IMG/VR virus record: IMGVR_UViG_3300025168_000001
DNA: 64,000 nucleotides
From: a virus
Strand: one strand, 5' to 3'
Shown: positions 23,106 through 55,196 of the stretch, piece by piece
Numbering within the stretch: position 1 is the first letter of the stretch
How the letters are laid out: each line of letters begins with the position of its first letter
Position numbers and translations under genes: made by a program
Notes under the pieces: model-generated
The model's input: the letters and a program-made list of their open reading frames with translations, nothing else
What the model was told of the DNA's origin: nothing
Database searches by the model: none

Positions 23106-23161
23106 CTTCGGCCCTAGCTTGGGGTAGTTTTGTGATTGGTTTTACCTATACCCAGCATAAG

Positions 23162-23196: not shown

Positions 23197-23223
23197 ACCT
23201 TATAGACGTAATCTTCTTCTTCG

Positions 23224-26200
23224 TTAATCCCTATAGTGGTAAGTTAAAATATCTTTTACATATTTATGACGATTGATTGCTTTGGACCACGGCACTACAT
23301 CAAACAATGCTTTTTGTATTTTTGTTTCTCCTTTTCTAGACCCTGCTTTATACCTTTCCCATTCTCCTCCCCAAGTATCACTACCAAATTGTTCCATAAG
23401 AGTCCATATACGTTCTATAAAAGTTGTAGTAGTTGCTGGAGACTGTAACAATCTTGCAGCTTCCCATGGATTTATATAGGCCATTAGCTCTGTTTGAAGC
23501 CTAGCCATAAAGAATGCATACATATAATACATATCATCTTCATCGTCTCCTCGTTTTTTCATTCCTTGTGCAGCATACATTAAAGTTACAGCAAGCCCTA
23601 ATTCAAAAACTGTTTTTCTAATACCAGCCTTTTCATGTGCAGACATGTTTCCCCATTCTTCTTTTGACATAGATAAAATACCTTTCTTTACTTTATAAGT
23701 ATCATCATGTAATCTAGCAAACTTTTGTCCTAGCTTTTTAAACCCGTGGTATGCAGAAAAAGCAAAATATTTTAAAGCTGTTACATATTTACCTTCTTTA
23801 AGTGTATTTAAAATAGGATCATATATACGAGTTGCATTTTTTGAAAAGTCCTTAGAATCTTTAAAGAAAGATGCATTACCCCTAGTTCTAGCAAACTCTC
23901 CAAAATTAGTAAACAATTGAAATAAGGCGCTTCCTATACCCTGAAGTCTCTGCTTGATACCTACAGGATAAAACTTTCTCATTGTTTCTAGTCCCTGCCC
24001 TACAGCTTGTCTTCTCATAGGAGGAGCATTTCTTAATGAGTATGCCCCATGTTCCATTTCATTTATCTTTTGTATTATATGAGTTAATCTACTTATTGTT
24101 TGCATATTCTCTTCCTCTTGCTGTGTACGTAAACTCATATCAAGATTCATATTACCATGTAACGGAGCTTTATAATAACTTTCGCCAACTCTATATTCTA
24201 CCTGCGCAACTTTTTTATCTAAATTTACATCAAAAGCTCTGATACCATCTTTAATTTTTTTTCTAGAATAAGCTTTTGCAAGATCCATGGCCTCTTCTCG
24301 TTTTTTTGTAATACCTTTACCACTTTTATGTATATAATCCCCCTCCTTGTTTAGAACTTTTGTTTCGGCTAAAACCGTTAACATAACTTCATGGTGCATA
24401 TTATGCTCTGCCAGATTATTAAGCCCATGTAAAGTATTACTATTTAAAAGAGCTTTCATTTTATTATTATAGGCGTATACATGGTTATGCATACTAAAAT
24501 CATTCATAGGATCAAATAGTAGTCCTAATAAATTTGTTTTAGATCTTGGAAAAGCTCTTCCTATATCTGCAATTATGTTAGCTTCATCCATATGATAATA
24601 TACAGCTCCTTTAGCCATTGATTTAGGACTAAAGAATTCATTACCTATAGATTCAGAAAGATGTAAAGTTCCACCTAGTAATCTATTACTTATTGTTGAC
24701 ATCCAGTTTGCTGATAGTAAAACAGTACTTGTAGCACTTAACCATAAATTCCATAGCTGTCTAATAGAAATAGGGCCCACTGTTATTCCAGCTTCTTCTA
24801 CAGTTTCATTAAACATCCTTTGAGCAACTAAATCCATAGCATTATTATAAGTATTGTTAGCTTCTTGAGACTCTTCTTTTTGAAGAACTTTTCCTATGCT
24901 CTCACTTGCAGCACTAGACATTTGTTTAAATACTCTTTGCCAACCTTTAGTCTTAATTAATTTTCTACTATGTACCAAATTTAATAACATCTCTATATAT
25001 GGAAGTATCTTATTCTTCTCATTATAATTTATAGAAACATAGTTACCAACTAATATGTTTTGATGTATATGCATTTGCTGATCTGCAAGTTCTATAGTCT
25101 TTGTAAAAAATATAGGAATATGTGTTAATTTAGAATCTACAACGTCCCCTGTAGCCTTCAATTGTTGCCCACTTTCAATATCTTTACCTCTCTGGTACGT
25201 AAAAATTTCTTTTATGTAATTCTTTGTCCAGTTATTCCACATTTCTCCGATACTATTAGGGCCTGTCATTACATCATCAAATCTTTCCCACATTAATTTT
25301 CTAATAGCATCATACTTATATCTAGTTTTAAACTCTTCAGGACGTGCAGAATCTCTCATTTTCATTCCTTTCAGTACAAACTTTTTGTAATACTGATAGA
25401 TAGGATTATTAGGATCTGTTGCTTTTAATTTATTAAGCTCTTCATATTGTTGAGACTTATAACTTTCTACAGGATGTAAATTAAACTCTATGTTTACACT
25501 GTTTAGAAGTCTTTTTAAATTAGCCCTATCCGACTTTATTCTATTCATATTTGGAACATGGTATAGATCTTCAAAATTAAATAGTTCGTCTCTTAGAGTG
25601 TTCTCTAAAGACACTGCATCAGATATCATAGATGCTCTTGTTTCCATTAATTCATATACCTGCTGTTCTAATTTATTTATTGTATTTATTTGTTTAGGTG
25701 TAGCAGATTTAAGATCCTGAAGACTTTTTATTACAGCAGATTTCTTTAAAATAGCTTTTTCTAAATCTCTAACCCTTTCATATGCTACAGATATCCTATC
25801 TTTTTGACCTTTAATTCCTGCGTCCTGATCATAAGATTTATTGGAGTGATATAATTTCCTTAGAGCTGTATAAACTCTGTTTATTTTTCTATTATTTGCA
25901 CTTGCAGCTTTATCTATTTGGCCTAAAGCATTTACTGTTGCTTTCTTTTTTAAAGCATACATTGCTTTCTTTATAGTTTCGAGATCTTTATGCCAATTAC
26001 TATGCCATCTATGTGTTATCCAGCCGCTACCATTTTTACTAAGATTCCCTTTGTCATCATAGGATCTTTCACCAATAAGAGAAAAGAAATCCGATAAATT
26101 ATTCTCATTCTTACCTAAAGAATTCATATACTTCTTATACTCTTGGAAAAGTATATTACCTTCATGTGCAAATTTAGTCCATCTTAATCTTCCTGTGTCT

Positions 26201-27291
26201 TCAGCTTTAAGTATATAATAGTTTAAAGCTCTAAGTATAGGAGAGGTTGTATTACTGGCATTTAAAGCCCATCTTTCTAACCAGGAAATGTCTATACCTG
26301 CCGATAATAATCTTACTACATGCTGCTTAGCGTCTGCTTCTATAATAGAAGAACTTGCCTGCATTTTTAAAACCACATGATCTTGAACTCTTTGTTGATA
26401 ATCTGTGTTTGTTTCACCTTTCTTCCTTTTTCCTTCTTCTGTTTCTGCAAAAGATCTTCTATAAAATTCTTTAGCATTTGCTTCATATTCTCCTGTTACA
26501 ATATTGTCGGCTACTTGCTCTAAAGATCTATTTTTATATTCGTTTTCTATAAGATCTAAAGTTTCTTGTAAATTTTTAAGATTCCTTATCACAGCTTCAG
26601 GTAAAAAGTAAGATTTACCTAAATTTAGACTAGAGCTGTTTTCTAACTCTTGTGCGTCTTTAATTACTTTAGATACATCTTTATACGCCTGTATAATACT
26701 GTACATGTTTTTCATTTGCTGGCCACTTAATTTCTTACCAGTTTTTTCACTCTCTTCAATTTGTTCTACTATTGTTTCTACATCTCTAATAGCATTTTTT
26801 GTATAATTAACAAATCCTCTCATCTCATTTGCTTCACCAATTTGCCTTAACAAATCTCCTATTTGTACCCTTAATTTTTGTTGTTGATGAAAAGTTCCCT
26901 CCATCCTTCTTAAGTTTTCTAAACGAGTACTTAAAGTGTCTACAATTTTTTGTAATCTTGACAACCCTGGAGTTGCAACATTATTAAACTCATTGTAATT
27001 ATGTCCTTTTTTAGCTATTCTCCAATTAGCAAAATATTTAACAACATCTGTAGCCAAAGGTTCTCCATATTTATCTAATCTAGGTATTCCTTTATCAGTC
27101 TTTAAAGTATATAAATTAGGATTTTTATGAAAATTTCCAAATTGAGATTTAAATTTAGGACCGTCAATGACAGATCTATACGCTTCTTCCGCTTCAGATT
27201 CTGAATTGTAATGATCTACTAAGTCTTTATATAAAAGACTATCAACATCTTGTCCTGTTTTAGGATCCTTAACTATAAATGTACATGCCAT
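23224..27291 (-). CDS. giant virion-associated protein (1355 aa), function unknown
   Basis: Uninterrupted 4.07-kb ORF in AT-rich DNA. Largely helical/coiled-coil-like composition, with a hydrophobic segment (FELGLAVTLMYAAQGM) near the C-terminus. Last gene of the giant-ORF block. Confidence 0.85.
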   Translation of the reverse strand: MACTFIVKDPKTGQDVDSLLYKDLVDHYNSESEAEEAYRSVIDGPKFKSQFGNFHKNPNLYTLKTDKGIPRLDKYGEPLATDVVKYFANWRIAKKGHNYNEFNNVATPGLSRLQKIVDTLSTRLENLRRMEGTFHQQQKLRVQIGDLLRQIGEANEMRGFVNYTKNAIRDVETIVEQIEESEKTGKKLSGQQMKNMYSIIQAYKDVSKVIKDAQELENSSSLNLGKSYFLPEAVIRNLKNLQETLDLIENEYKNRSLEQVADNIVTGEYEANAKEFYRRSFAETEEGKRKKGETNTDYQQRVQDHVVLKMQASSSIIEADAKQHVVRLLSAGIDISWLERWALNASNTTSPILRALNYYILKAEDTGRLRWTKFAHEGNILFQEYKKYMNSLGKNENNLSDFFSLIGERSYDDKGNLSKNGSGWITHRWHSNWHKDLETIKKAMYALKKKATVNALGQIDKAASANNRKINRVYTALRKLYHSNKSYDQDAGIKGQKDRISVAYERVRDLEKAILKKSAVIKSLQDLKSATPKQINTINKLEQQVYELMETRASMISDAVSLENTLRDELFNFEDLYHVPNMNRIKSDRANLKRLLNSVNIEFNLHPVESYKSQQYEELNKLKATDPNNPIYQYYKKFVLKGMKMRDSARPEEFKTRYKYDAIRKLMWERFDDVMTGPNSIGEMWNNWTKNYIKEIFTYQRGKDIESGQQLKATGDVVDSKLTHIPIFFTKTIELADQQMHIHQNILVGNYVSINYNEKNKILPYIEMLLNLVHSRKLIKTKGWQRVFKQMSSAASESIGKVLQKEESQEANNTYNNAMDLVAQRMFNETVEEAGITVGPISIRQLWNLWLSATSTVLLSANWMSTISNRLLGGTLHLSESIGNEFFSPKSMAKGAVYYHMDEANIIADIGRAFPRSKTNLLGLLFDPMNDFSMHNHVYAYNNKMKALLNSNTLHGLNNLAEHNMHHEVMLTVLAETKVLNKEGDYIHKSGKGITKKREEAMDLAKAYSRKKIKDGIRAFDVNLDKKVAQVEYRVGESYYKAPLHGNMNLDMSLRTQQEEENMQTISRLTHIIQKINEMEHGAYSLRNAPPMRRQAVGQGLETMRKFYPVGIKQRLQGIGSALFQLFTNFGEFARTRGNASFFKDSKDFSKNATRIYDPILNTLKEGKYVTALKYFAFSAYHGFKKLGQKFARLHDDTYKVKKGILSMSKEEWGNMSAHEKAGIRKTVFELGLAVTLMYAAQGMKKRGDDEDDMYYMYAFFMARLQTELMAYINPWEAARLLQSPATTTTFIERIWTLMEQFGSDTWGGEWERYKAGSRKGETKIQKALFDVVPWSKAINRHKYVKDILTYHYRD

Positions 27292-27294
27292 AAT

Positions 27295-30200
27295 TTAACA
27301 TTTTTTCTTTGCTCTGGTTTTTACTTCTTTACTAAGTCGATTATAAAATTTGAGATTTTCATTAGAAGGTAAAGCAAAGTTTCCAATCTCTTTATAAATA
27401 TCTTCTATACTCTTATCCAAAGATACGCCATTTTTAATGAAATCCGTGAAAGTAATCTCTAATAATTCTTTAGCGTTAGTCCCTATCACTTTATCCATTA
27501 AACTTGTAAATAAATCTATGATAGATTTTATAAGATTAGATAACATTGTTCCTTCAAATAAAGGGCCTTCTTCTTGTATTTGTATATTCTCTAATTGTTT
27601 CATAACCTTTTTAAAAGTTAATCCATAAGCTAAGAACTCATCAAATACGTTATTCATTTCTTCTGCATATGCTCCGTAATTAAAGTACTTTTTCTCTCCT
27701 GAAAGAAGGTTTTCATTAATCTTTATATATTTTTCTACAGCAGTTTGCAATTGTTCAGGCATATCTTTAAGCTTAGTTTTTTCAATATATAAATCTAATA
27801 ACTTTTGTACCCTAACTTGGAACATTTTTTCTGTCGTTGTTTTACTATTCCAAGGTTTGTGTAAAGATTGCGCAGTCATATTATGAATAGTTTCATGTAA
27901 TAAAACCATTGCTTCTGTCTCTGTTTTTGAATATCCTTTTATTGTGTTTATTTTAAGAGGCATAAACACTCTATTTGCATTTAGATCATAAAATGCTACT
28001 GAACTCTCAGCTCTAGATTTCTTTATAACATCCGCACTTGTATAAACAATTTCAGTGTGTGTATCTCTAGTTAATTCCTGCATCATATTAATTATAGGAC
28101 TATAAGCCGACTTAACTGGTAATTGACGTTCAAACTGTTGTAAAAGTACTGTTAAAGGTCTAGAATCAAGGAAGTAATCCATCTGGTTTATTTTTTGCTG
28201 TTCAAAAAATATCTGTTGACCCTCACCTCTCGCTGCTAAACCTATGAATTTATTCCATGCTGCTGCATATCCAATATAATTACCTACTTCTTTATCATAA
28301 GAAACAGACTCTTCTGAAATTCCTGCTATATACTCCTGCAGCTCCAAGTTATACTTAAGAGCAGCTTTAATTGCTACTTCTGGTTCTATACCTTCATTTA
28401 TAGCCTCAGCTATAGTTTTAAATATTCCTACAATTCTAGGACCTTTACTTGTTTGAATTACAACAGGGAAAGATTCTTCTAATTTATAATTAGGAGTAAG
28501 TATAGTATGTAAATCTTGTTCTTCAGATATAGTACTAGTAAAATCTTCTTCGTTATTTAGAGTATTACTAAATTCTGATTGAGAATCATAGTCTAATTGT
28601 GCAGCATCTAGAGGAATGAATTTTCCACCTTTGTTAAGTTTTGCTGCTATTGATGCTAAAGCTACTAGTTTATTATTTTGCCTTAGAACACCTAACCAAT
28701 TATTTATAACTTTATCATTAAATACATTTACTATCTGGTTTTCTTTAAGCTCAGTTCTGTTTTCTGCATTTTCAAAGATTTTTCTACCTTTCTTATAAGT
28801 ACCTGTTCTTTCAGTTAATTGATAAATAGCATCTCCTTTTTCATTATAACCTATGTGCTCCATTAAAACAACTTGTTTACCTTTAACATTTACTTCTATG
28901 AATGGTACAAAATGTTTAAATCCTTCTTTTGGTTCTCTGGTTATAAATTTACGTGCACTGTTAGAAGGTAATACTATATTATAAACATAACTTATTTTAG
29001 ACCCTGGAATCTTAATGACTTTTGGAGACTTAGCAAAATATTCTGGAACTAATTCCGTATTACTAGTTTGAGTTTTAAGGAATTTTTTTAGTTCTGTCTC
29101 ATCAAATATTATATTACCATGAGTTTTAATGTCTAGTACTTGTTGACCAAATTGGTCATATACACCATTGTCTAGTTCATACTGTAAAGGCGCTAATTCG
29201 TGGAAAGAAAACAAAGTATTACTAAATCCTGATGATAATATAGAGAATTTATATAAGTCCTCAGCAAATTTTCTTACAGCAGCATCCTCACTAGAGAGCA
29301 AAGCATTCCACCCTTCAGTTAATGAGTCTTTATCTACACCTTCTTTTTTCTCACTCGCAGATGTTATTATATAATCATGTCCCCTTTTAGTATTAGAGAA
29401 CTCTGGTGATAAATATTGTACAAAAGGATTATCTTTTATAGGGCTATTATCTTCATTCTTATATCTCCATAATCTATTTACAACATTGTTTTTAGAGTAT
29501 AAAATATCAGTTACGTCTATACCTTTGTAAAAAGGCGTTTTAGAAAATAAGTATGAAATAAAGCCTGCATAAACTTTTCTATATAAGTCTTCATTTTGTA
29601 ATACTTTTTCATTACCTACTAACTCAGAAAGGTCTTTCATAATACCTTTAAAATTAGCGTTTCCAGCTAGGAATGTATTGCCAAATAAAGACAGCATCAT
29701 ATTAGGACCATTTTCTTGATACTTACCTAGCATAGTTCCATCAAACCTTTCAGAAAACCCTCCTATTACATCTGTTTCCAATACAGCTTCTATATTATTT
29801 TGGCCTATAATAGCCCCTACAACACCTCCTGCAGCACCTTGAGTATCTGCTTTAGAAGCTGTAACTGCTTTATTCAATTCACTAGCGGTACCTTTAAGAT
29901 TTAGGAACAGGTTTAATAATAATAACTCATCATAAGTTCTATTTGCCGTTGGAGTCTGTGAAGAGTCCAGTAGAGATTCTAATCTTTCTGTAGTTATAAT
30001 GTCACTAATTCTTATAGGACTTTTAGCATTAAGTGCTACAGCATCTTCTAAAGGTATATTATTACGTCTAGAATACATTCTTATACGGCTATCTTCTTTA
30101 AGTAAATTAACTATTTTAATATCTGCTATAGGAGTGCCTGTTAATGCGGAGTACTTAGTTAGTAAACGATTTCTTAAAACTTGTTCTGCTTTAAATACAC

Positions 30201-33200
30201 GCTTGCCATTAATATTTACCCCAGGGCTACCTGGAGAATTAATGAAATCCTGAGTTTTTACATAATCTGATAAAACTCTAAGACCCATAAATCTGTTAGT
30301 CCATCTAGGATCTACACCTGCTCTATCTAGTAAAGCAACGGTATTAGCAGTTGTTTTATTATTATTTAAATAAAATATATAAGGATCTTTAGCTATATCT
30401 ACATATGCATCTAGTCGTGCAGACATAGTGTTAGATATAAGGCCTCCTGCTGTATCAGTTATACTAGAAAGATCTGTAACCATAGTTTGTGGAGTTAGTC
30501 TACCTAGACCTATATCTTTACCTTTTAAAAATAAAGAAGATTCTACATTTTCTAGTGCCCACTGTGAAATAGCATGATCTACTAGATGCCTAGCTTCTTG
30601 ACCTACACCAAACTTACCTCCTAAGAATGTTTCTTTGGTTCTCATTTGGTACACAGGAGAGAAAAACTCTAAATCATTTCTAGAAGCTAGCACAGAACTT
30701 ACAGTAGAATAGAAATCTTCAGTTTCTCTGGCTGCTTCAATCTCTTCAATTTGAGATGGTAATAAAGTAGATTTAACTTTTAAATATCTAACTAGAGCAG
30801 CATCTTCTTTAGTGGCCATACTATCTAAAGGATTTATTAGCTGATCAAATGTATTATTACTCGTTAGTATAGATTGGTATAACTCTAGTTTTCTATTTCG
30901 TAAAGATTTTTTAAATAGCTCTACTCTGTTTCCTCTAGTTTGTCTGTTTTCTTCAATTGTTTTTGTGCCGTCATAATTTACGTAATACAAACCTTTTTTA
31001 GACTCTGCATAAGAAGGTAGCATTATATACAATTTATCTATATCAAAATCAGCCCCAGTCTTAGCCGTAAACTCATCGTAAACTATAACAGTATCTCCGA
31101 CAGATTTTGGAAGGAATCCTACTATATCAAAAGAGTCTATAGAACTCATAGCCTGATTAGGTATACGATAACCTACTGCAGTTAATAATCGTTTATCTTT
31201 TATATATTTTGCTATTTCTTTATTAGACATTTGCTCATGTCCTGGAACGTGCTTTTCTTTAAACCAGCTAGGTAAAAATATTTGAGCTCTTACTGTACCA
31301 TCTTTACTGTTATATACAGCACCTAATCCTCTTTCATTTATTTGTTTGTTTAACTCTATTTTAACTTTTTGAGGCAGATCAGAAAATTTCTTCATTCTCT
31401 GCATACCAAAATTACTTTGCTGTATAAAAGACCCACCTGGCATCTTAAGCTTAACAAGTCTATCTGTTATCATTGCCCCTAACATACTTTCAATATCTCT
31501 CATAAAAGGATGCGAGCTAATATCAATAGCAAATCCAGTTCCAGACTCATTTAATGCTAGAGATTCTAGTAGTTTTTTAGGAGTATTTTTCTTAGCTTTA
31601 AAAGCATTGTATAATATACTATGTAGTTTTGTATAGTCTTCTATATGATATTTAACTTGACCAGTTAGCATATCAACAGTTTCTGTACTAACTCCCCATT
31701 CATTTACCATTGCATCTTTTTCAAGATCGCTTAATGATCTGTCTATAGCATGTAACTCTTTAACTAGTTCATACCCTGAAATCTCTTTATATTGTTGTTC
31801 ACCATTAGCAATCCTAGTAGGAACTTTATACATAGCTTCTAAGTCAATATTACCTATTATATTTTTCTTAACCTGAGATCCTTCTAAAGATTCTGACTCC
31901 AAATGTGGCTTTAAGTCTTGCTGTAATTTCCAAAATTCATTCTTTAATATAAATGGATTTAAAACTATATTATTAGAAAGTTCCCCAGTCTCCTGGTTTT
32001 GCATTATATTAGAAGGACTCAAAGCCCCTACTTTTATACCTGATTCAAATACAACTTCATCTACATGTTGCGTATTCATAGCTTCAAGCAATTTAGAAAG
32101 CTCTGTTCCTTTTACAACACTAGGTATAAGAACAGCTTGAGAGTATTTTAAATATGTTGGTATATGTAAAGTTGTTTTCCCATTATCAGCTGTTTTTCCT
32201 TTTCTAGTTTCAAAATGCATACCTTTTAATGGCTGCGCCAGTATCATGTCAAAATTAGTGTCATCAACAATTTCTCCATTTAATACTCTAAAGTAAGTAG
32301 CATCATATTTTTTATCCCATTTCCCTAACATCCTCATAAGAGACCTCCATCTAGGAAGAGTTATATAAGCTTGTGCATCAGTAACATTTATATTTAAATA
32401 TGGTTTTAATATTTTTTTAGCTTCGTCTCTACTTAACCCTTTCTTTTCAATTAAGAATTTAAGATAATTATCATAGTACTTCGCTTTAGGAAGAATCTGA
32501 TCTTCTATAATAGCCGCTGTGTAAGTTTCATGGCCTTTTATTATTTTAAGGTCTTGACCAGGCGCTATTAATTCAGGAAAACGTTTAGATAAATCATCTA
32601 AATTTTTATAAAAAGCAGGATCTTGAGAGTATAACTTTGTTGTCTCTATATTAGATATTAAGTTATTAATTGAATAGTTAGCTATAGCTAATCCTATACC
32701 ATAATGTTCTTTAAATTTACCTCCTTTTTGACCATACTTCTCTTTATGTGCTTTTAATATTTTAGTAGATATACTATTATTTTTATAAATTATAGTATCT
32801 TCTGTAGGTTTTGTTCTAATTATTACACCATTTTCTAAAGCAAATGAAATTTCATCTTGTATTCGATTCATTAAAATAGGCTTTACAAATTTTGTAAGCT
32901 TATCTAATACTAAATCTGAATTCCAGTTATCTAAAAATAAACCATCTTCTGACATTATCCCTGCTTCTTTAAGAAATTTACTAGTTAAAGATGGGAATAA
33001 TATAAATTTAAGTCCATTTGCAGAGTCTCTATTACGTGTATTATCTTCATTATTACCATTATAGTGATAATAATTTGTAAGCTCCGTGTCATTTAATTTA
33101 TTTTTACCAAATAATTCTTCGGTAACTGCTTGTACTCTAGAAATCTCAGACGCTGCGTATAATGCTATTTTTCTAGATATATTGTCACCTAATCTTATAG

Positions 33201-39828: not shown

Positions 39829-39830
39829 AT

Positions 39831-42962: not shown

Positions 42963-42964
42963 AT

Positions 42965-48631: not shown

Positions 48632-48632
48632 A

Positions 48633-51600
48633 TTATCTTATATTTTGTTGTGCGGATCCGTACAAATAATTCATAACTAGCTTATGTTTTCCTTGACCCG
48701 CTAAATTACTAAAAAATAAGCGAATACCCAAGTATTTATCACTCAAATACTGGCGCTCATACCATGCTTTAGTGTTGGAAACCGCTAAAGGATTAACAAC
48801 TTTATCTAACCAATGTGTAGTTGTAACAGATGACCAAGCTGAGGTAAACAAAGGAGTCCCCGTTCCCCTAGCTATAGCCATATCTCTAAACCCATTAAAG
48901 CCCCAAGTTCTTTCTTTCCTTTCGAGTAGTAATTGATTAGCTACTTCATTTACAGAAGTGCTCATCATTGTGTTTACACTAGTGTCTTTAATAGCAAAAT
49001 TTAGATTACCTGTTAGTTGATAATCATTATACAGAAGTACAGAATCAAATGTTATATATCTGTCATCTACATATGAGTCTGTTGTACTATTATAATATGA
49101 TGCATCTGTAACAAAATGAAAATTATCATAAGTATTAACATTTAATGGACTGTCGTTATTTATTATATCTACAACAAATGGTTGCACACATCCATAATAA
49201 GTTTGATAATTATTTTTAGTAAGAGGAACTAATCCATGTCTATATATTTCTACACCTTTCTGTACATTCCAAGAACCTACATTTAACCCACTGTAAAAAT
49301 GATTTCTCATTCCTACATAATAATGAGGCATATAACTATGGAAAGATACCCATTGGTTTAGACCTACATTAAAACTAGAGGTCCAAGATTTACATTCAAA
49401 TATATCATCTAAGCTGTTTATTATAGCAACTGTATTATCGTTTAAAGTTATATTTATATTACCAGCAGTTTCATTTGCACCACATGTAGAACAAATATCA
49501 CTTCCAGTATCCATTAAATTTTCCCAGTTACACGGAGTTACTTGCATAAAGTCATTAGTTACACTAACTGTAGTAGTTACAGTTTGTGCACTTACAAACT
49601 CACTTATATCAAGACCTAGATTAGCACCAAAGTCACTATCATCTCTTCTATCCCATCTACCTCCCCATCCATAATCAGTCATAGGAGGTTGATTTCTATA
49701 AGGATTATTAGCACCTGTTCCTGTGTAAGCCATAGATAAATTTACAAATCCTGCCCCAGTACCAGAAACTCCTACTTGACAAGACTTTCCTACACCGTCA
49801 TCAGGATTAGCATTAGTAGCACATGATGGTAAATTGTCTATATTATTACCATGCATAGCAGAAAACGCGTGTAAAACAAAAGCAGCTTTCCAGGCATCAT
49901 TAGCTACAGAATATATAAGAGAACTAGCCTCTTTACCACCGCCTGTATGGGCATTCCATGCATTTCTATAACTAGTATAATCAGTATCCCAAGCATTTGT
50001 ACGTTGTGCTCCGTAGTTAGCAATATCACCAAAACCATGATACCTGTTCATAGACTCATCTAGTAAACAAATACAAAAGACATTTTCTCCAGTTGCCATA
50101 GCATCTATCGGCCATACTACCCATTCTTCAGGTTGACCTTTTGTTACGTGATGTACTTGACCAGACCAGTTTGCTAACAGTCCTCCTGGCACATTTTCAT
50201 TGGATATCCAATTATTTATAGAAGCTTTAGCAGCAGCTTGTGCGCCAGCTCCCATAGAAGTTGTATCATAAAATGCCCATATATGAGTATCCGATGGTAA
50301 CGATTGTGTATAAGTATTAGTTACTGTTTGTGTCCAAGTATGTTCACATTCTTGTTCACCAGTTAAAGCATTAGTTATTTCAGTAACTACGTAGTTATCA
50401 AAGTCTTCCCATAAAGGATTATTTTGACAATCACAAGTGGCAGCTGCTCCTCCACTTATTACCCAGTTGCCTGAGTACTCGTCTGCTTCTATAACGTGAT
50501 AATAAGGAGATGCAGGGTCAGTAGTATCCCAAGGAGCTCTTAACTCATAATCTCTTTTTGTTACTATAAATCTATTATGTCTAACATCATACACAGCGTT
50601 GTATCCCGCCCCCGCAGGGTTAGCAGGATTATCTATAAAAGGAAACTTCTTTTTATATATAAGCTCGTATTGATCATATATCTCAATATTCATATTATTT
50701 TCAAACCAGGCCTTCATCCCTACATTAGTAAGATCCTTAGGATTCTCTTGCTGTAGGAACATATGCCCTTGCCTTTCATCTGGCCAGAATGTTCCAGTTT
50801 CAGTTTGCATAGTAGCCCACTGAGATTGACATCCTAGATATCCTTGATCAGATTGTAATATTTCTTGTATATCATTGCTAAAGAAATCACCAGTTCCTAT
50901 GTAAACACTACGCTCTCCAGCTGCAGGAGAAACTACATTTCTTGAAGGATCTATCCTCCACATAGATTCAGCTGTATGTATATATACAGAATTATTTAAA
51001 GTAAACATATTCCATATTTCACCTCTATGTGCTGGTATATCTTTGTAATTATTTGCTAAGAAAGATTTATATCTATCTCTTTGTTCTTCTTGGAAAGTTT
51101 GTTCAGAATATGTTATTCTAAATGGATGCCTTTCTTGGCAGTCTGCACAGAAATCAAATTGTAAAGGTAACGGAGAATATATATTCTCTTCGTTAATTTT
51201 ACTATAGTCTTGATTATAGTCATAATAATTTGCAGTCTGGTGATCTCCACCATCTTGAGTTGAGAATGCTTTAGCTCTATCATGTACTCTAGCATCATCT
51301 ACAAAACTTATAGCTCCATAAGAACCTCCTCCTCCTACACCTTCAAAATGATAAGGGTAAATTCGTTCGCCTGTTACGTCATTACCATTTCTTAATTCTG
51401 TATTCATATAAGACTCTGTCCAGTACCATACAATATTATTATATACTGCATGTCTAGATTCATTGTTTCCAGACTCTCTTTCCCTTACATTCCATCCTCC
51501 CGCATAGGCAGGAGTTTGAGTACCCTCTGCACCTGATGCGAACTCTGCTACACAATCATCGGTTCTAGCTCCTTTAACTGCATTAGCACATCTCTTGTTT

Positions 51601-54600
51601 TCATTTCCTTGTTTAAATGCGAACCTAGATACAAAACTATCTCCACCAAATAAAGGACCTGAATCCATAACCATACTTGGCATAACTGGATCTGTATAAA
51701 CTAAACAATTATGTGTAGGATGATAAAGTAAAGATCCTATAGCTCCATATGCATCATAAGCTTTTTTCTTAAGGGACACATAATATGCAGTACCTACTCC
51801 TTCATTACTTCCATTACCTCCCTCTAAATATTTACACATTCTTCTAGACCACGCCTGATCTTGTGGGCAATTTGTTGCCTCAGGGTTATTACCAAGCCAA
51901 GGAAACGCATAAGGATACCTAGTTCCAGGAGATCCTTTTGTATAGCCTATCATTAGCATACATTCTTGTTGCTCATTATCATTACTAAAAGGAGCCCACC
52001 CCATAGTAGGTATAAAATGATTTCCAGAATTATGTTCTATTTGTACGTAATCTTCTAATCTAACGTTAGTTAACCCAAAATTATATAAAGCATCTCTATC
52101 CCAAATCCATTCACATGTACCACTATCACCTGTAGAATGGCACTTAGGACTAGAACTATATTGACTATTCATTCCTGTATCAACTCTAGAGTAAGGCACT
52201 ACTGATTGTTGATAAGACATTCTTTGATATATATAAGTAGTACCACCGTTACCACCATTACCGTCATCTCTACCATCAGAAGACATACCTATACCTGATA
52301 AAGAATTACCAGACCATGAACTATGTGTCCATGTAGTATGAGTACTTTGATCAGTAGCTATATCATTTACACAACAGGCATTATTACATAATATTAAATA
52401 ATTATATCCTAGCAGAACTCTTTCTACTTTTATGTACTGTGCACCAGACACAGTTCCAAACTTAGCTAAAGGTCCATGATAAGCTTGTGTAGCACATGGA
52501 TAAACTATTTGCTTTGTCCAGTATCCTTGGTTAACTCCAGCGCTTGTGCTAAAATCTGATTCATCTGGTGTTTGCCATCCCCAAAATCCTAAAGGATATC
52601 CGTTACCTCTATTAATAGCATCACTTACATTATCATCCCCGTCAGCTCCGTCATAGTAATCAAACTCACCGTGTATCATTGCTAAAGGCATCATATGATA
52701 ATACTTATCTTCATCTTCATTATCAGGACATTGTATACAATCTGTACTTCTTGCTCCATAAGGAACAAATCCATTAAAGTGATTTCCTGTTTCATCAAAA
52801 TTTAACAGGTAATAATTATCAGCTACAACAGTAGTCGTACCATCATCTCCAAATCCTAAAAAGGTTGCAAACGCTGTTGCATAATCTCCACTATTTAAAT
52901 TACTAGTCCCACCCGCAGACATGTGAACACAAGCAAAACTATATATATGTTTATTAAAATTACCTGCTTGAAATTGAAAACCACATGAACTTGGTGGTGG
53001 AGTTGGTTCTGTCTGCCTTCCCATCCAAGATACCGCTGCAGAAAAAGTAAAAAACATAACTCCTTTATCTAACACACTTCTATCTGTTTCTTCTGTTCTC
53101 GCTCTAACAATTTTCCATCCTTGAATATGCTTCGCCATATCCGCAGGTATTTTTACATTTTTAGCTTCTATACCTAGAGTTACAGTTCTTGGGATATCCA
53201 TACTATTTCCAAAAGGATTATCTCCTCTATCTCCAATATTAGAATTTTGAACAGTTCTTGCCCCATAAAAATGAGGTTCTAATGTTGTGTCAGGCATTTG
53301 GTGATGTCTAACAAAATGCATTGCATATTCTCCATTTCCTAGATCTTCATGTGGATAAATAGGAATTCCTTTACAATCTCTCGTATCTGGATATATATAA
53401 TTACGGGCTTCGTAATATGACATCTGACCTTTAGTAATATACTCTGCATCTTGATATTGCTCTACCTCTCTAACAGCAGTATTATATATTTCCCACCTGT
53501 GTACATGTGCGGTACCTCTATTATAAGGAGTAATTAATCCAGGATTTACATCATTATCTTGAGGATCATAATGCATAGCATTCATATTATTAGTAGTAGC
53601 CCAGTTTGCCTCTGTAACTATAACATCACTATCCCATCCTCCACTTCCTACTGGGGGTCTATTGTGCTGCCCCATAGTATAATTTAAAGCTCCTGGAACA
53701 TTATAATCTCCGTCTGTTATAAGTCCTGATCCTGCTCCTCCATAAGTCCAATCATCAGTAGCCGAAGAGTAAGACCACTTTTGACTATTGGCTGCAGACC
53801 TATTCATTTCTCTTCCTGGTATATGATATGTAGGACTATTAGTACCATCTTTATAATAAAATACAATACCAAAAGCATATACTTCATCTCTCATATAAGG
53901 TCTATAATCAAAATAATACTTTCCTGATACACTAGATACATCTTCAGAATCCTCTGCATTTAAAGTTTGTGTAGTATATGTTATCTCTATGTTTTGTGCG
54001 GCTCTTTGAAGTGCTATATGATCTATAGTTAATTCTTCTGTCCCTCCTAATATAAGTCTATTAGAATGTTGTGCTATAGTTTTAGCTTTATTAAATACTT
54101 TCCTATCTACTGTAAGCTCATCTCTACTTAAGTATATAGTTGAGGTAGGATTATACTCTCCAAAAGCAAATGTTTCTACAGTGTCAGTAATAGGAATTTC
54201 AGCTACAAGCCTACCTCCCTCAACATTTTGACCTAAACCTCCTGTAGAAGGCCATGCTGCAACTCTTAAAAATTGGAAAGATGTATCAAGATTTGTAAAT
54301 TTTAATACAATAGCTTTACTTGTTTTATTTCCGTCTACACTAAAACCACTTGCTGTACCCCCGTCTGCCTGTACAGTTCCAGACGTAGTTCCTTTGATCC
54401 CTAAATCACCTGCAGTTATAGGATCAGCATATACAGGAACAGGCTGTGTTAAATCTGTCCAGTTTGTAGGATTAAAATCTTGATCTAGATATTGAACTGC
54501 AAATTGATAAGTACCTGCCGCCAATCCTCCACTATCATTAATTTCTACTAGCTCTATACAAGGGTAATCAAAATCTGGGAATAGCTTCATGTTTTCACAA

Positions 54601-55196
54601 TCCCACAAAGATGATCCATCATGGTGATCGTACGGACTTAGTCTGTAATCGTTAGGGTCTCCTTCAGGATGGTCAGATAAATATTGAGCTTTACCATAAA
54701 TAACATAGTCCTCTAAAGAGTCTAGATTCAAATGTCGTATATCATTAAAGTTGTCTGTAAAATATATATTTAGTTCACAACCATTTCTAACTCTTATTAT
54801 AGCCTGTATTTGATGATGTATTTTAAAATTTAAACAGTTTGCCGTTATTAAAACTTGTACAGTACAGTCTTTTTTAATACGTACAATACGACCCCAATTA
54901 TAATAAGGACTTGCAAAAGAAGAATCCTTAGGCGCTAAAAAAGCAATAGCCTCATCATCTTCTACGTATACGTGTCCAATTATAGCCCAATCATTACCAA
55001 TTTCACCACATTCATAATTACCAAACTCGTTTGTAAGGAACCCTAAATCTCCATCAACACTTTCATTCATAGCGTTTAGAGCCCATCTGTACGTTCCTTC
55101 TGGTTGCGTTTGAGGAGAAGTGTCGTTGTTTAACCCTTTAGCAAGGGAATTAACAAACTTATTACTTCCACCTGTACTTTGTCCTTGATCTGCCAT
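48633..55196 (-). CDS. giant virion protein (2187 aa), W/Y/G/N/C-rich, function unknown
   Basis: 6.56-kb ORF with beta-rich composition. Contains a module (about 50101-50286) paralogous to the N-terminal part of ORF 59961-61898. Confidence 0.85.
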   Translation of the reverse strand: MADQGQSTGGSNKFVNSLAKGLNNDTSPQTQPEGTYRWALNAMNESVDGDLGFLTNEFGNYECGEIGNDWAIIGHVYVEDDEAIAFLAPKDSSFASPYYNWGRIVRIKKDCTVQVLITANCLNFKIHHQIQAIIRVRNGCELNIYFTDNFNDIRHLNLDSLEDYVIYGKAQYLSDHPEGDPNDYRLSPYDHHDGSSLWDCENMKLFPDFDYPCIELVEINDSGGLAAGTYQFAVQYLDQDFNPTNWTDLTQPVPVYADPITAGDLGIKGTTSGTVQADGGTASGFSVDGNKTSKAIVLKFTNLDTSFQFLRVAAWPSTGGLGQNVEGGRLVAEIPITDTVETFAFGEYNPTSTIYLSRDELTVDRKVFNKAKTIAQHSNRLILGGTEELTIDHIALQRAAQNIEITYTTQTLNAEDSEDVSSVSGKYYFDYRPYMRDEVYAFGIVFYYKDGTNSPTYHIPGREMNRSAANSQKWSYSSATDDWTYGGAGSGLITDGDYNVPGALNYTMGQHNRPPVGSGGWDSDVIVTEANWATTNNMNAMHYDPQDNDVNPGLITPYNRGTAHVHRWEIYNTAVREVEQYQDAEYITKGQMSYYEARNYIYPDTRDCKGIPIYPHEDLGNGEYAMHFVRHHQMPDTTLEPHFYGARTVQNSNIGDRGDNPFGNSMDIPRTVTLGIEAKNVKIPADMAKHIQGWKIVRARTEETDRSVLDKGVMFFTFSAAVSWMGRQTEPTPPPSSCGFQFQAGNFNKHIYSFACVHMSAGGTSNLNSGDYATAFATFLGFGDDGTTTVVADNYYLLNFDETGNHFNGFVPYGARSTDCIQCPDNEDEDKYYHMMPLAMIHGEFDYYDGADGDDNVSDAINRGNGYPLGFWGWQTPDESDFSTSAGVNQGYWTKQIVYPCATQAYHGPLAKFGTVSGAQYIKVERVLLGYNYLILCNNACCVNDIATDQSTHTTWTHSSWSGNSLSGIGMSSDGRDDGNGGNGGTTYIYQRMSYQQSVVPYSRVDTGMNSQYSSSPKCHSTGDSGTCEWIWDRDALYNFGLTNVRLEDYVQIEHNSGNHFIPTMGWAPFSNDNEQQECMLMIGYTKGSPGTRYPYAFPWLGNNPEATNCPQDQAWSRRMCKYLEGGNGSNEGVGTAYYVSLKKKAYDAYGAIGSLLYHPTHNCLVYTDPVMPSMVMDSGPLFGGDSFVSRFAFKQGNENKRCANAVKGARTDDCVAEFASGAEGTQTPAYAGGWNVRERESGNNESRHAVYNNIVWYWTESYMNTELRNGNDVTGERIYPYHFEGVGGGGSYGAISFVDDARVHDRAKAFSTQDGGDHQTANYYDYNQDYSKINEENIYSPLPLQFDFCADCQERHPFRITYSEQTFQEEQRDRYKSFLANNYKDIPAHRGEIWNMFTLNNSVYIHTAESMWRIDPSRNVVSPAAGERSVYIGTGDFFSNDIQEILQSDQGYLGCQSQWATMQTETGTFWPDERQGHMFLQQENPKDLTNVGMKAWFENNMNIEIYDQYELIYKKKFPFIDNPANPAGAGYNAVYDVRHNRFIVTKRDYELRAPWDTTDPASPYYHVIEADEYSGNWVISGGAAATCDCQNNPLWEDFDNYVVTEITNALTGEQECEHTWTQTVTNTYTQSLPSDTHIWAFYDTTSMGAGAQAAAKASINNWISNENVPGGLLANWSGQVHHVTKGQPEEWVVWPIDAMATGENVFCICLLDESMNRYHGFGDIANYGAQRTNAWDTDYTSYRNAWNAHTGGGKEASSLIYSVANDAWKAAFVLHAFSAMHGNNIDNLPSCATNANPDDGVGKSCQVGVSGTGAGFVNLSMAYTGTGANNPYRNQPPMTDYGWGGRWDRRDDSDFGANLGLDISEFVSAQTVTTTVSVTNDFMQVTPCNWENLMDTGSDICSTCGANETAGNINITLNDNTVAIINSLDDIFECKSWTSSFNVGLNQWVSFHSYMPHYYVGMRNHFYSGLNVGSWNVQKGVEIYRHGLVPLTKNNYQTYYGCVQPFVVDIINNDSPLNVNTYDNFHFVTDASYYNSTTDSYVDDRYITFDSVLLYNDYQLTGNLNFAIKDTSVNTMMSTSVNEVANQLLLERKERTWGFNGFRDMAIARGTGTPLFTSAWSSVTTTHWLDKVVNPLAVSNTKAWYERQYLSDKYLGIRLFFSNLAGQGKHKLVMNYLYGSAQQNIR

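What the first reader, a model, noticed from the sequence alone, without database searches (positions are those of the whole stretch)
23224..55196. 32-kb block of five contiguous giant ORFs (10,650 codons) on one strand
ORFs of 2187, 1888, 1043, 4177 and 1355 aa are separated by only 1-4 nt and end at the convergent terminator. Only fragments are interpretable: an RNAP-like loop, HExxH motifs and an M15 peptidase. More than 90% of the block has no recognisable motif. The architecture resembles the ejected 'cargo'/RNAP block of crAss-like phages. However, the partitioning, with a single 4177-aa RNAP-bearing polypeptide, and the low-complexity 1888-aa protein may be distinctive.
Basis: partly seen in the sequence, partly recalled or inferred. 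Interest (0 to 1): 0.7.

Follow-up and report, generated by a model that had tools for sequence, protein, structure and literature searches.

The report
CrAss-like phage muzzle, cargo, RNA polymerase block
The five giant genes are the standard tail-tip "muzzle", ejected cargo proteins and virion RNA polymerase of a marine crAss-like phage, so the block is ordinary for that group, but its cargo proteins have almost no cysteines except one at each chain end where two genes meet, a family-wide rule that suggests the proteins are tied head to tail.

Summary
There are five back-to-back ORFs on the minus strand (2187, 1888, 1043, 4177 and 1355 aa), separated by 1-3 nt and ending at a bidirectional terminator.

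The block is the crAss-like virion module:
- The 2187-aa protein is the tail muzzle (Pfam crAss_MUZ), not cargo. Ring 1 and Ring 2 lie just upstream.
- The 1888- and 1043-aa proteins sit where cargo proteins C1 and C2 sit. The 1043-aa protein carries a C-terminal M15 peptidase.
- The 4177-aa protein fuses a gp47-like part, the two-barrel virion RNA polymerase (E=1e-107 to phi14:2 gp66, DFDID motif) and a zincin domain.
- The 1355-aa protein is the gp49/gp076 homologue.

The partitioning is not distinctive. Flavobacterium phage Fpv1 has a 4401-aa equivalent, and about a third of relatives carry such fusions. C1-position proteins reach 1821 aa elsewhere.

One thing is new as far as my literature checks reach. 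The four cargo proteins hold 4 Cys in 8463 aa, against about 129 expected. The 4177-aa protein has a single Cys, its last residue. The 1355-aa protein has a single Cys, residue 3. Across dozens of divergent lineages every gene break in the polymerase module is flanked by such a Cys pair, and fused versions lack it. I infer a disulfide tether, which is untested.

The parts
56572..57279 (-). Tail ring protein 2 (context, upstream of the block)
   Evidence: Pfam CrAss_Ring_2, E=6e-42; 2.6% Cys
55201..56121 (-). Tail ring protein 1 (context, 4 nt upstream of the muzzle gene)
   Evidence: Pfam CrAss_Ring_1, E=1e-53; 3.6% Cys
48633..55196 (-). Muzzle protein (2187 aa), the tail-tip gatekeeper; a structural protein, not cargo
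   Evidence: Pfam crAss_MUZ, E=1e-52 (aa 15-411), and crAss_MUZ_C (aa 1995-2104); PHROG 15100, E=1e-157; 29-38% identity in blocks to Fpv1 gp30; 39% identity over the full length to the L084 muzzle; 38 Cys, 1.74%
42965..48631 (-). 1888-aa Gly/Asn-rich cargo protein in the C1 (crAss001 gp45) position
   Evidence: Sits immediately after the muzzle, as in all relatives. Two domains are shared with the C1-position proteins of Fpv1 and L084-L089. Only 2 Cys. No hit to Pfam crAss_CARG1. Only a weak hhalign link to gp45 (E=0.0023).
46637..47014 (-). Conserved domain D1 of the 1888-aa protein (aa 540-665); the likely counterpart of the portal-binding domain of C1
   Evidence: jackhmmer hits in 6 relatives. 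The motif EG.[ST]HE..G...[IV][FW]S is shared by eye with gp45 aa 444-493 and phi14:2 gp081. hhalign E=0.0023 over 30 columns.
44477..45139 (-). Conserved domain D2 of the 1888-aa protein (aa 1165-1385)
   Evidence: jackhmmer E=1e-57 to 1e-77 against C1-position proteins of 6 relatives; BLAST hits to Fpv1 gp31 and L084
44429..44446 (-). CPGGKC: the only two cysteines of the 1888-aa protein
   Evidence: C1-position proteins have either 0 or exactly 2 closely spaced Cys (gp45 390/398, phi14:2 gp080 369/378, L084 118/123, L088 732/740).
42968..44314 (-). C-terminal extension of the 1888-aa protein (aa 1440-1888); lineage-specific, function unknown
   Evidence: No match in the local relatives. The only outside homologue is a Tara Oceans protein at 48% identity.
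39831..42962 (-). 1043-aa cargo protein in the C2 (gp46) position, fused to a C-terminal peptidoglycan peptidase; no Cys
   Evidence: Position. The N-terminal 190 aa are homologous to the C2-position proteins of L084 (1e-19) and L005. The N-terminal motif M.R[YF]...T is shared with phi14:2 gp079 and Fpv1 gp32. No hit to Pfam crAss_CARGO2.
39855..40148 (-). M15 zinc peptidase domain (aa 939-1036)
   Evidence: Pfam Peptidase_M15_3, 26.8 bits against a cutoff of 23.2. Intact S.H..G.A.D and H.H motifs, shared with L005 and L084. The AF2 model was unusable.
27295..39828 (-). 4177-aa fusion protein: gp47-like part, virion RNA polymerase and zincin domain; one Cys only
   Evidence: the identical protein is in public collections
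34879..39828 (-). N-terminal part (aa 1-1650), equivalent to crAss001 gp47 / phi14:2 gp078 (protein A)
   Evidence: aa 1390-1615 match gp47 aa 2077-2323 (4e-7). aa 1-763 and 1035-1298 match the giant ORF of L084 (2e-23). There is a weak hit to gp078 (0.016).
34984..35661 (-). Zincin-like domain 1 (aa 1390-1615; HEAYH at 35404-35418)
   Evidence: The HEA[YF]H motif is conserved in crAss001 gp47 and in 6 IMG/VR relatives.
28942..34650 (-). Two-barrel virion RNA polymerase module (aa 1727-3629)
   Evidence: phmmer against PDB 6VR4 (phi14:2 gp66), E=1.1e-107 over its residues 236-2059. tblastn finds 143 phage records, almost all from crAss-like phages. 3446 homologues in the exhaustive search.
31036..31050 (-). 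DFDID catalytic metal-binding motif (aa 2927-2931)
   Evidence: The only D.D.D motif in the block. It aligns with DFDID 1361-1365 of gp66, and D548/D550/D552 are invariant in alignment A1.
27298..28941 (-). C-terminal part (aa 3630-4177) with zincin-like domain 2 (HETIH at 27883-27897)
   Evidence: The domain group is homologous to the phi14:2 gp076 HEIMH domain (hhalign 93%, E=2.5e-7). Fpv1 gp33 has the same arrangement.
27298..27300 (-). Cys4177, the last residue and the only cysteine of the 4177-aa protein
23224..27291 (-). 1355-aa protein, homologue of crAss001 gp49 / phi14:2 gp076 (protein C)
   Evidence: aa 707-1351 match gp076 (7e-42). aa 611-1351 match gp49 (5e-22).
27283..27285 (-). 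Cys3, the only cysteine of the 1355-aa protein
26638..27291 (-). N-terminal 'cap' domain (aa 1-218, MAC...FGNF)
   Evidence: Homologous to the N-terminus of the phi14:2 RNAP gp077 (2e-7). The same module heads either the RNAP or the downstream protein in different relatives.
23158..23198 (.). Bidirectional intrinsic terminator between the block and the convergent replication genes
   Evidence: Hairpin GGCTAGTAAT-TAAT-ATTACTAGCC, flanked by an A-run and T8

Best explanation
The block is the virion 'delivery' module of a marine crAss-like phage with a genome of about 92.6 kb. The phage probably infects Flavobacteriia.

One late operon encodes the following, in order:
- The tail muzzle (2187 aa), which caps the tail barrel built by Ring 1 and Ring 2.
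- Two cargo proteins in the C1 and C2 positions (1888 and 1043 aa). These are presumed to leave first and open the cell envelope. The second carries an M15 peptidase to cut peptidoglycan.
- The three-part virion RNA polymerase module A-B-C. Here A (gp47-like, with a zincin domain) and B (the two-barrel RNAP with DFDID) are fused with a second zincin domain into one 4177-aa chain. C is the separate 1355-aa protein.

The polymerase is packaged in the capsid, ejected ahead of or with the DNA, and transcribes the early genes.

Shown here: homology, synteny, intact motifs, integrity of the ORFs, and extreme cysteine depletion that is restricted to the four cargo proteins.

Inferred from work on phi14:2 and crAss001: packaging, ejection and function.

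My own added inference: the single Cys at the C-terminus of the 4177-aa protein and the single Cys at residue 3 of the 1355-aa protein form an inter-chain link, most simply a disulfide. This would make the module behave as one continuous thread during packaging and ejection.
For: - Pfam: crAss Ring 1, Ring 2 and muzzle at E=1e-42 to 1e-53.
- RNAP module against PDB 6VR4: E=1e-107, with DFDID conserved.
- Gene order: muzzle, C1, C2, A, B, C, converging on a replication block with RNR, is identical in phi14:2 and Fpv1. In phi14:2 all of these proteins were detected in virions by MS. The crAss001 proteins match, and Bayfield et al. found them in virions.
- M15 domain scores above the Pfam cutoff and has intact metal ligands.
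- Cys content: 4 in 8463 aa of cargo, against 1.52% in the other window ORFs and 1.7-3.6% in muzzle and ring proteins (P=6e-50). Cys depletion is a published hallmark of ejected proteins in N4-like phages.
- Cys rule: in 63 IMG/VR loci, 64 of 88 junctions between large ORFs have Cys on both sides, 22 on neither side and 2 are discordant (Fisher p=9e-19). The pattern holds in 46 clusters below 50% identity and in 150 gene-caller-predicted homologues. Among those, 75 of 96 split RNAPs have Cys at both ends, 44 of 52 A+B fusions have only the C-terminal Cys, and the fully fused proteins of about 4700-5300 aa have none.
- The break between B and C lies downstream of zincin domain 2 here and in Fpv1, but upstream of it in phi14:2. 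It is flanked by a Cys pair in both cases.
- In crAss001 the A gene lies on the opposite strand from B and C, yet the Cys pattern persists.
Against: - There are no virion proteomics or activity data for this phage.
- The 1888- and 1043-aa proteins do not hit the Pfam C1 and C2 families, so their assignment rests on position, composition, partial motifs and homology to the same-position proteins of closer relatives.
- No strongly hydrophobic segment was found in the 1888-aa protein, whereas a transmembrane helix is predicted in gp45.
- Capsid, portal and terminase genes lie outside the window, so placement in the order Crassvirales is not shown by phylogeny. Fipvunavirus, the closest cultured group by muzzle, is not assigned to Crassvirales in its GenBank record.
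- For the tether: there is no direct evidence of a disulfide. Virions assemble in a reducing cytoplasm. A few homologues lack the N-terminal Cys, possibly because their starts were mis-called.
Confidence: 0.9

Rival explanations
1. The giant ORFs are artefactual fusions created by sequencing or assembly errors, or hide frameshifts or introns, so the real proteins are smaller.
For: Some crAss-like genomes do have interrupted RNAP genes. L018 carries a 940-nt insertion with a LAGLIDADG-like ORF inside the DFDxD motif. Others use alternative genetic codes.
Against: Identical ORFs occur in four independently assembled public contigs. A relative at 78% identity keeps the giant ORF open. 52 of the 150 best homologues are fusions of 3300-5800 aa. 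A cultured phage, Fpv1, has a 4401-aa equivalent. There are no internal stops.
Confidence: 0.02
2. The proteins are made and packaged but are not ejected. They would be internal scaffold or core proteins, or tail fibre or host-recognition proteins, and the polymerase would act only late inside the infected cell.
For: Ejection has not been shown for this phage. Most of the 1888-aa protein, and aa 1-1390 of the 4177-aa protein, have no assigned function.
Against: Drobysheva et al. report that phi14:2 gp66 is a virion RNAP, and Yutin et al. cite that work for its translocation into the host and its transcription of early genes. Cys is purged from exactly these four proteins and not from muzzle or ring proteins, the same signature seen in N4 ejection proteins. 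In crAss001, C1 sits partly in the tail barrel, poised to exit.
Confidence: 0.06
3. The terminal cysteines do not form a disulfide. They might bridge the chain ends through a shared metal ion, serve as a packaging or processing signal, or be inherited relics without present function.
For: Each chain end contributes only one Cys, and no structure shows the link. Virions assemble in a reducing cytoplasm, and many relatives live in the anaerobic gut. Two zincin domains lie close to the breaks.
Against: A relic would not survive divergence below 30% identity while every other Cys is removed (0.016-0.035% internal Cys). A signal would not be missing from the first N-terminus and the last C-terminus, and would not vanish on fusion. 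Break positions differ between lineages, yet each break is flanked by a pair. Inter-subunit disulfides exist in crAss001 virions. The Lys-rich flanks of the C-terminal Cys would be expected to make the thiol more reactive; this last point is my own inference from general chemistry.
Confidence: 0.3
4. The block is an N4-like (Schitoviridae) ejection operon with a giant T7-like virion RNA polymerase.
For: The logic is similar: a giant, Cys-free virion RNAP preceded by smaller ejection proteins.
Against: The polymerase matches the two-barrel gp66 enzyme, and no N4 vRNAP chain appears even at E<=1 in the PDB search. The tail proteins are crAss ring and muzzle families.
Confidence: 0.01

Closest known systems
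Cellulophaga phage phi14:2 genes gp082-gp076 (GenBank numbering; gp077 is the 'gp66' virion RNAP of PDB 6VR4)
   Same: Same order: ring 2, ring 1, muzzle, small cargo proteins, A, RNAP, C, then convergent replication genes with RNR. The RNAP is 28% identical over about 1280 aa with the same DFDID motif. The C protein is homologous (7e-42). The terminal-Cys pattern is the same: gp078 Cys is the last residue, gp077 has Cys3 and Cys2179, gp076 has Cys3.
   Different: In phi14:2, A (1797 aa) and B (2180 aa) are separate proteins, and the C1 equivalent is split into gp081 and gp080. Zincin domain 2 lies at the N-terminus of C, not at the C-terminus of B. The C2-position protein has no M15 domain. 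The muzzle is 1340 aa, against 2187 here.
Flavobacterium psychrophilum phages Fpv1/FpV4 (Fipvunavirus), genes gp30-gp34
   Same: Closest cultured relatives by muzzle protein (about 32% identity). Identical partitioning: muzzle, C1-like, C2-like, a 4401-aa A+B+zincin fusion with a single penultimate Cys, then a C protein that starts MAC.
   Different: The C1- and C2-position proteins are much shorter (628 and 732 aa) and have no M15 domain. Identity is only about 25% in the RNAP core.
Bacteroides phage crAss001 gp44 (muzzle), gp45 (C1), gp46 (C2) and gp47/gp50/gp49 (RNAP-associated cargo)
   Same: The same set of functional parts. gp47's C-terminal HEAFH domain, the gp50 RNAP core and gp49 are all homologous to parts of the 4177- and 1355-aa proteins. 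Cargo is Cys-poor with terminal Cys.
   Different: In crAss001, gp50 and gp49 lie on the opposite strand and A, B and C are three separate proteins. The window's C1- and C2-position proteins do not match Pfam crAss_CARG1 or crAss_CARGO2, whereas gp45 and gp46 do.
Schitoviridae (N4, DEV) ejection operon with giant vRNAP
   Same: A giant virion-packaged RNA polymerase with accessory ejection proteins, and near-total absence of cysteine, interpreted in the literature as an adaptation to passage through the periplasm.
   Different: The polymerase fold is unrelated (T7-like single-subunit against two-barrel). The tail proteins are different. N4 vRNAP is one chain, and no terminal-Cys pairs are reported.

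Membership tests
crAss-like (Crassvirales-type) virion module | Paralogous tail ring proteins and a muzzle protein with the crass fold | tested here: met
   Pfam CrAss_Ring_1 1e-53, CrAss_Ring_2 6e-42, crAss_MUZ 1e-52 and crAss_MUZ_C
crAss-like (Crassvirales-type) virion module | Large virion protein with a DFDxD motif, homologous to the phi14:2 gp66 two-barrel RNAP | tested here: met
   E=1.1e-107 to 6VR4 over about 1900 aa; DFDID at aa 2927
crAss-like (Crassvirales-type) virion module | Gene order muzzle, cargo, RNAP-associated proteins, convergent with the replication block (primase, DnaB and SNF2 helicases, ATPase) | tested here: met
crAss-like (Crassvirales-type) virion module | Placement in the order by capsid, portal and terminase phylogeny | not tested
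   These genes lie outside the 64-kb window. The GenBank taxonomy of the closest cultured group (Fipvunavirus) does not list Crassvirales, whereas phi14:2 is in Steigviridae.
crAss-like (Crassvirales-type) virion module | Proteins present in virions and ejected into the host | not testable with these tools
   Inferred from MS on phi14:2 and crAss001, and from cargo-specific Cys depletion
Crassvirus cargo protein 1 (Pfam PF25725 crAss_CARG1) | Match to the portal-binding domain profile | tested here: not met
   No hit for the 1888-aa protein at E<=0.1. gp45 (2e-66) and phi14:2 gp081 (3e-10) do hit. hhalign of the D1 alignment against gp45/gp081 gives only E=0.0023 and 13% probability. Equivalence is positional and at motif level only.
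Crassvirus cargo protein 2 (Pfam PF25712 crAss_CARGO2) | Match to the profile | tested here: not met
   No hit for the 1043-aa protein, nor for phi14:2 gp079, Fpv1 gp32 or the L084/L088/L089 counterparts. Equivalence is positional, plus a shared N-terminal motif.
Peptidase M15 (zinc D-Ala-D-Ala or L-Ala-D-Glu peptidase fold) | Profile match above the curated cutoff, with H-x6-D and H-x-H metal ligands | tested here: met
   PF08291 at 26.8 bits against a cutoff of 23.2. SPHLDGNALD and HGDHYH are present and conserved in L005 and L084.
Peptidase M15 (zinc D-Ala-D-Ala or L-Ala-D-Glu peptidase fold) | Predicted fold | tested here: inconclusive
   The single-sequence AF2 model had mean pLDDT 39.5, and only the last 45 or so residues exceeded 60. 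No fold search was run.
Zincin-like metallopeptidase domains of crAss RNAP-associated proteins | HExxH motif in a domain homologous to those of crAss001 gp47 and phi14:2 gp076 ('gp65') | tested here: met
   HEAYH domain against gp47: 4e-7. HETIH domain group against the gp076 group: hhalign 93%, E=2.5e-7. Catalytic activity is untested.
Schitoviridae (N4-like) vRNAP | T7-like single-subunit RNAP core | tested here: not met
   No N4 vRNAP chain among the PDB matches at E<=1

The most novel reading that the evidence does not exclude
In crAss-like phages the separately encoded parts of the virion RNA polymerase module (A, B and C) are re-joined after translation into one linear chain. The joins are disulfides between a Cys in the last few residues of one protein and a Cys at position 2-7 of the next. 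Every other cysteine has been purged so that no wrong pair can form. The chain would secure 1:1:1 packaging and ordered N-to-C threading through the tail, and would fall apart in the reducing host cytoplasm. In the window this would link Cys4177 of the giant protein to Cys3 of the 1355-aa protein. I did not find the rule in the literature I could search.
Probability: 0.45. Interest if true: 0.8.

Novelty: new member of a known kind. Interest (0 to 1): 0.55.

Why it matters
The block itself adds a divergent marine member to a well-described module. It shows that the C2-position cargo protein can carry its own cell-wall peptidase, and that C1-position proteins can grow to nearly 1900 aa.

The cysteine rule matters more. 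How crAss-like phages pack and eject about 5 MDa of cargo, and how three polymerase-associated proteins stay stoichiometric and ordered, is still open, and the cargo was not resolved in the crAss001 cryo-EM reconstruction. A covalent head-to-tail tether would explain why split and fused gene layouts interchange so freely.

The rule also gives annotators a simple test. It separates true protein ends from breaks caused by introns, frameshifts or recoding. It can be checked directly with non-reducing gels, or by re-searching existing non-reduced virion MS data.

Tried and rejected
- Megablast of the giant gene against 50,697 phage records: no match.
- The search for homologous proteins with the whole 4177-aa protein timed out. 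With aa 1-1720 it found nothing at 1e-5. The exhaustive search later showed the identical protein is present in the representative library built from the same public protein collection, so this negative may reflect the word prefilter rather than true absence of relatives.
- The search for related loci with the single protein: no pattern match. An alignment of four RNAP cores was needed.
- PDB sequence searches with the muzzle, 1888-, 1043- and 1355-aa proteins: nothing meaningful.
- Weak hits rejected as chance: BPTF bromodomain (E=0.025, aa 554-656), Glycos_trans_3N and Phage_tail_C_2, DtxR SH3.
- Internal repeats between the five proteins: none.
- Tandem DNA repeats in the 1888-aa gene: only trivial two-copy units. 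The low complexity is compositional and not repeat-driven.
- Kyte-Doolittle scan for transmembrane segments: none above threshold in any of the five proteins.
- Profile comparison of the 1888-aa protein's domains with gp45/gp080/gp081: D1 weak, D2 none.
- jackhmmer of aa 3630-4177 against the local set: only the close relative L004. The link to phi14:2 gp076 needed group-against-group hhalign.
- Single-sequence AlphaFold model of the M15 region: pLDDT 39.5, not used.
- Explanations for the terminal Cys that I considered and rejected:
  - Split inteins: there is no intein-sized domain, because the Cys are at the very ends.
  - A nucleotide-level signal for translational coupling: the Cys positions vary, the equally tight C2|A junctions lack Cys, and crAss001 keeps the pattern with A on the other strand.
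  - Protease-site remnants: fused forms have no Cys at the junction.

Full report
**1. Observation**

The five ORFs exist exactly as described. They lie on the minus strand at 48633-55196 (2187 aa), 42965-48631 (1888), 39831-42962 (1043), 27295-39828 (4177) and 23224-27291 (1355). The gaps between them are 1-3 nt and none has an internal stop. Strand composition flips at about 23.2 kb.

The 118-nt gap to the convergent + strand genes holds a 10-bp hairpin flanked by an A-run and T8. This is a bidirectional terminator.

The same proteins are found, residue for residue, on contigs assembled independently in four public sources. The longest is about 92.6 kb. The giant ORFs are therefore not assembly artefacts.

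**2. What the block is**

*Tail proteins.* Pfam recognises the two genes just upstream as crAss tail Ring 2 and Ring 1. It recognises the 2187-aa protein as the crassvirus muzzle protein. The first ORF of the block is thus a tail-tip structural protein, not cargo.

*The polymerase.* Residues 1727-3629 of the 4177-aa protein match the solved virion RNA polymerase of Cellulophaga phage phi14:2 (PDB 6VR4) at E=1e-107. The only D.D.D motif in the whole block, DFDID at aa 2927, aligns with the catalytic DFDID of that enzyme. tblastn of the core finds 143 phage records, almost all from crAss-like phages. An exhaustive phmmer search finds 3446 homologues.

*The parts around the polymerase.*
- Upstream of it, aa 1390-1615 (HEAYH) match the C-terminal HEAFH domain of crAss001 gp47.
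- Downstream of it, the HETIH domain at aa 3978 belongs with the zincin domain of phi14:2 gp076, the 'gp65' of Drobysheva et al..
- The 1355-aa protein is homologous to phi14:2 gp076 (7e-42) and crAss001 gp49 (5e-22).

*The 1043-aa protein.* It has a C-terminal Peptidase_M15_3 domain that scores above the Pfam cutoff and has intact metal ligands.

*Synteny.* Gene order is the same as in phi14:2 and in Flavobacterium phage Fpv1. In phi14:2 every protein of the block was detected in virions by MS/MS. In both phages the block converges on replication genes. The window's + strand carries PolA, SNF2- and DnaB-type helicases, primase, an ATPase, Sak4 and RNR.

**3. Are the partitioning and the 1888-aa protein distinctive? 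No.**

*The giant fusion.*
- Fpv1 gp33 is a 4401-aa 'virion structural protein' with the same content.
- Among 33 IMG/VR relatives, about 12 have RNAP ORFs of 3500-5300 aa. The rest have the split form of 1400-1950 plus 2100-2760 aa.
- Among the 150 best homologues from 1.84 billion representatives, 52 are A+B fusions.
- Fusion into a polyprotein was already noted in the phi14:2 paper.

*The 1888-aa protein.*
- It shares two domains (aa 540-665 and 1165-1385) with the proteins that follow the muzzle gene in Fpv1 and six IMG/VR relatives.
- Those proteins range from 640 to 1821 aa.
- Its extra length comes from a longer Gly-rich N-terminal region, a 510-aa acidic spacer (about 180 aa in relatives), and a 450-aa C-terminal extension. 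The only outside homologue of that extension is a Tara Oceans protein.
- It does not match Pfam crAss_CARG1, and the 1043-aa protein does not match crAss_CARGO2. Calling them C1 and C2 is a positional and compositional assignment with only motif-level support.

*The M15 fusion.* The M15 domain on the C2-position protein is shared with two relatives, L005 and L084. The motif scan did not find it in Fpv1, phi14:2 or crAss001.

**4. The cysteine pattern**

*In the window.*
- The 4177-aa protein has exactly one cysteine, its last residue.
- The 1355-aa protein has exactly one, residue 3.
- The 1043-aa protein has none.
- The 1888-aa protein has two, in CPGGKC.
- By contrast the muzzle has 38 and Ring 1 has 11. 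The other ORFs in the window average 1.52% Cys.
- Four Cys in 8463 cargo residues, against about 129 expected, gives P=6e-50.

Cysteine depletion of ejected proteins is already known for N4-like phages. There it is attributed to passage through the periplasm. Here it supports the view that exactly these four proteins are ejected.

*The placement of the remaining cysteines is the new part.*
- In phi14:2, gp078 has one Cys (the last residue), the RNAP gp077 has Cys3 and Cys2179 of 2180, and gp076 has Cys3.
- In Fpv1, gp33 has Cys4400 of 4401 and gp34 has Cys3.
- In crAss001, gp47 has Cys2339 of 2341, gp50 has Cys5, Cys2404 and one internal Cys, and gp49 has Cys5.

*In IMG/VR relatives.* I examined 88 junctions between consecutive ORFs of at least 500 aa in 63 loci.
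- 64 have a Cys in the last 10 residues upstream and in the first 8 residues downstream.
- 22 have neither. Where I could classify these, they are junctions between the C2-position protein and A, junctions outside the module, or fragments from genomes with an alternative genetic code.
- 2 are discordant.
- Fisher's exact test gives p=9e-19. Internal Cys is 0.035%.
- The pattern holds in 46 clusters below 50% identity: [A: -...C][B: C...C][C: C...-]. A+B fusions keep only the C-terminal Cys. A four-piece version (L005) has pairs at both extra breaks. A fully fused 5005-aa protein (L021) has none.

*In independent gene calls.* The 150 representative-library homologues give the same result. Internal Cys is 0.016%. 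75 of 96 split RNAPs have Cys at both ends. 44 of 52 A+B fusions have only the C-terminal Cys. Five fully fused proteins of about 4700-5300 aa have none.

*Sequence context.* The C-terminal Cys lies 0-2 residues from the end in 105 of 133 cases and has Lys-rich flanks. The N-terminal Cys is at position 3 in 57 of 83 cases.

*Three further observations argue for a protein-level function tied to chain ends.*
- The B|C break lies downstream of zincin domain 2 in the window, L004, Fpv1 and L057, but upstream of it in phi14:2, L016 and L019. It is flanked by a Cys pair in every case.
- crAss001 keeps the pattern although gp47 is encoded on the opposite strand from gp50 and gp49.
- An intron-type interruption of the RNAP gene in L018 (a LAGLIDADG-like ORF inside DFDxD) has no Cys at the pseudo-break.

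**5. Mechanism**

*Established by homology and by published work on relatives.*
- Ring proteins build the tail barrel and the muzzle gates its tip.
- C2-type cargo and the three RNAP-associated proteins sit in the capsid cargo zone.
- All of them must pass partly unfolded through the tail.
- The RNAP then transcribes early genes.

*Inferred for this phage.* The M15 domain on the C2-position protein cuts peptidoglycan during penetration. The zincin domains may process the 4177-aa chain or activate the polymerase.

*My own inference.* Each Cys pair forms an inter-chain bond once virions are outside the cell, most simply a disulfide. A, B and C then behave as a single thread. The tether would give 1:1:1 packaging and ordered N-to-C ejection, and the reducing cytoplasm would release it. 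All other Cys have been purged to prevent wrong pairs or cross-links. crAss001 virions are known to contain inter-subunit disulfides in the tail.

*Alternatives.* These are a metal clasp, another role for the thiols, or no link at all. I rate the disulfide reading at about 0.45.

**6. Literature check**

I found no mention of cargo cysteines in:
- the phi14:2 preprint;
- Bayfield et al. 2023, which discusses tail, hub and gp57 disulfides only;
- Yutin et al. 2021;
- the 2026 N4 paper, which states that crassvirus ejection proteins remain structurally unresolved;
- two full-text searches.

The final Nature version of the phi14:2 paper was not available, and I did not consult Yutin et al. 2018. 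I therefore cannot exclude prior mention there.

**7. Verdict**

The finding is real and is correctly read as a crAss-like delivery block. Its claimed distinctive features are ordinary within the group, so it is a new member of a known kind. The terminal-cysteine rule, visible in the window and general across the family, is what deserves follow-up.

Noticed in passing
L018:11548-12491 (IMG/VR relative): The RNAP gene is interrupted exactly inside the catalytic motif (...TKTGSD | FDVDKMY...) by about 940 nt that carry a 214-aa LAGLIDADG-like ORF. This looks like a group I intron of the kind Yutin et al. 2021 described. No Cys flanks this pseudo-break, unlike true gene breaks.
   Followed up: partly
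window 26638-27291 (aa 1-218 of the 1355-aa protein) and loci L006, L008, L010-L013, L018, L019, L057: An N-terminal module of about 55-200 aa (M-x-C ... S.L[YF]..L ... [FY]GD[WY]) heads the RNAP in phi14:2 and several relatives, but heads the downstream protein in the window, L004, L006, L010 and L057. A second N-terminal type (M..CPN.....W..L) also occurs. These Cys-bearing caps seem to move between proteins.
   Followed up: partly
window 44429-44446 and C1-position proteins of L084, L088, phi14:2 gp080, crAss001 gp45: C1-position proteins have either no cysteine or exactly two, 4-8 residues apart (CPGGKC here). This may be a small loop or a metal site. In gp45 it lies just N-terminal of the portal-bound domain.
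   Followed up: partly
window 1-23105, + strand: A complete crAss-type replication block converges on the virion block: PolA (6517-8367), SNF2-like helicase (8355-9563), DnaB-like helicase (10175-11197), Sak4-like annealing protein (11464-12147), primase (13528-14526), exonuclease VIII-like (15102-16121), ATPase (16139-17293) and a ribonucleotide reductase (20605-22458).
   Followed up: partly
window 59961-61898, - strand: A 645-aa ORF upstream of the exonuclease and ring genes has 18 cysteines (2.8%) and no Pfam or PHROG match. Its position and Cys content suggest a possible tail hub or fibre component.
   Followed up: no
window 58246-59523, - strand: An Mre11/SbcD-like DNA repair exonuclease (PHROG 704, E=1e-74) sits among the virion genes just upstream of Ring 2. 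Fpv1 (gp25) and phi14:2 (gp086 metallophosphoesterase) have the same arrangement.
   Followed up: no
window 42965-48631, and the NCBI 41,536-bp contig holding proteins P0169 and P0170: In the NCBI copy of this genome the 1888-aa gene is represented only by 255-aa and 121-aa products. The most likely reason is that the contig ends inside this low-complexity gene, so public annotation of the protein is incomplete.
   Followed up: no
window 33086-33571, + strand: A 161-aa GTG-initiated ORF lies antisense inside the giant gene. It is almost certainly a chance ORF in AT-rich sequence.
   Followed up: no
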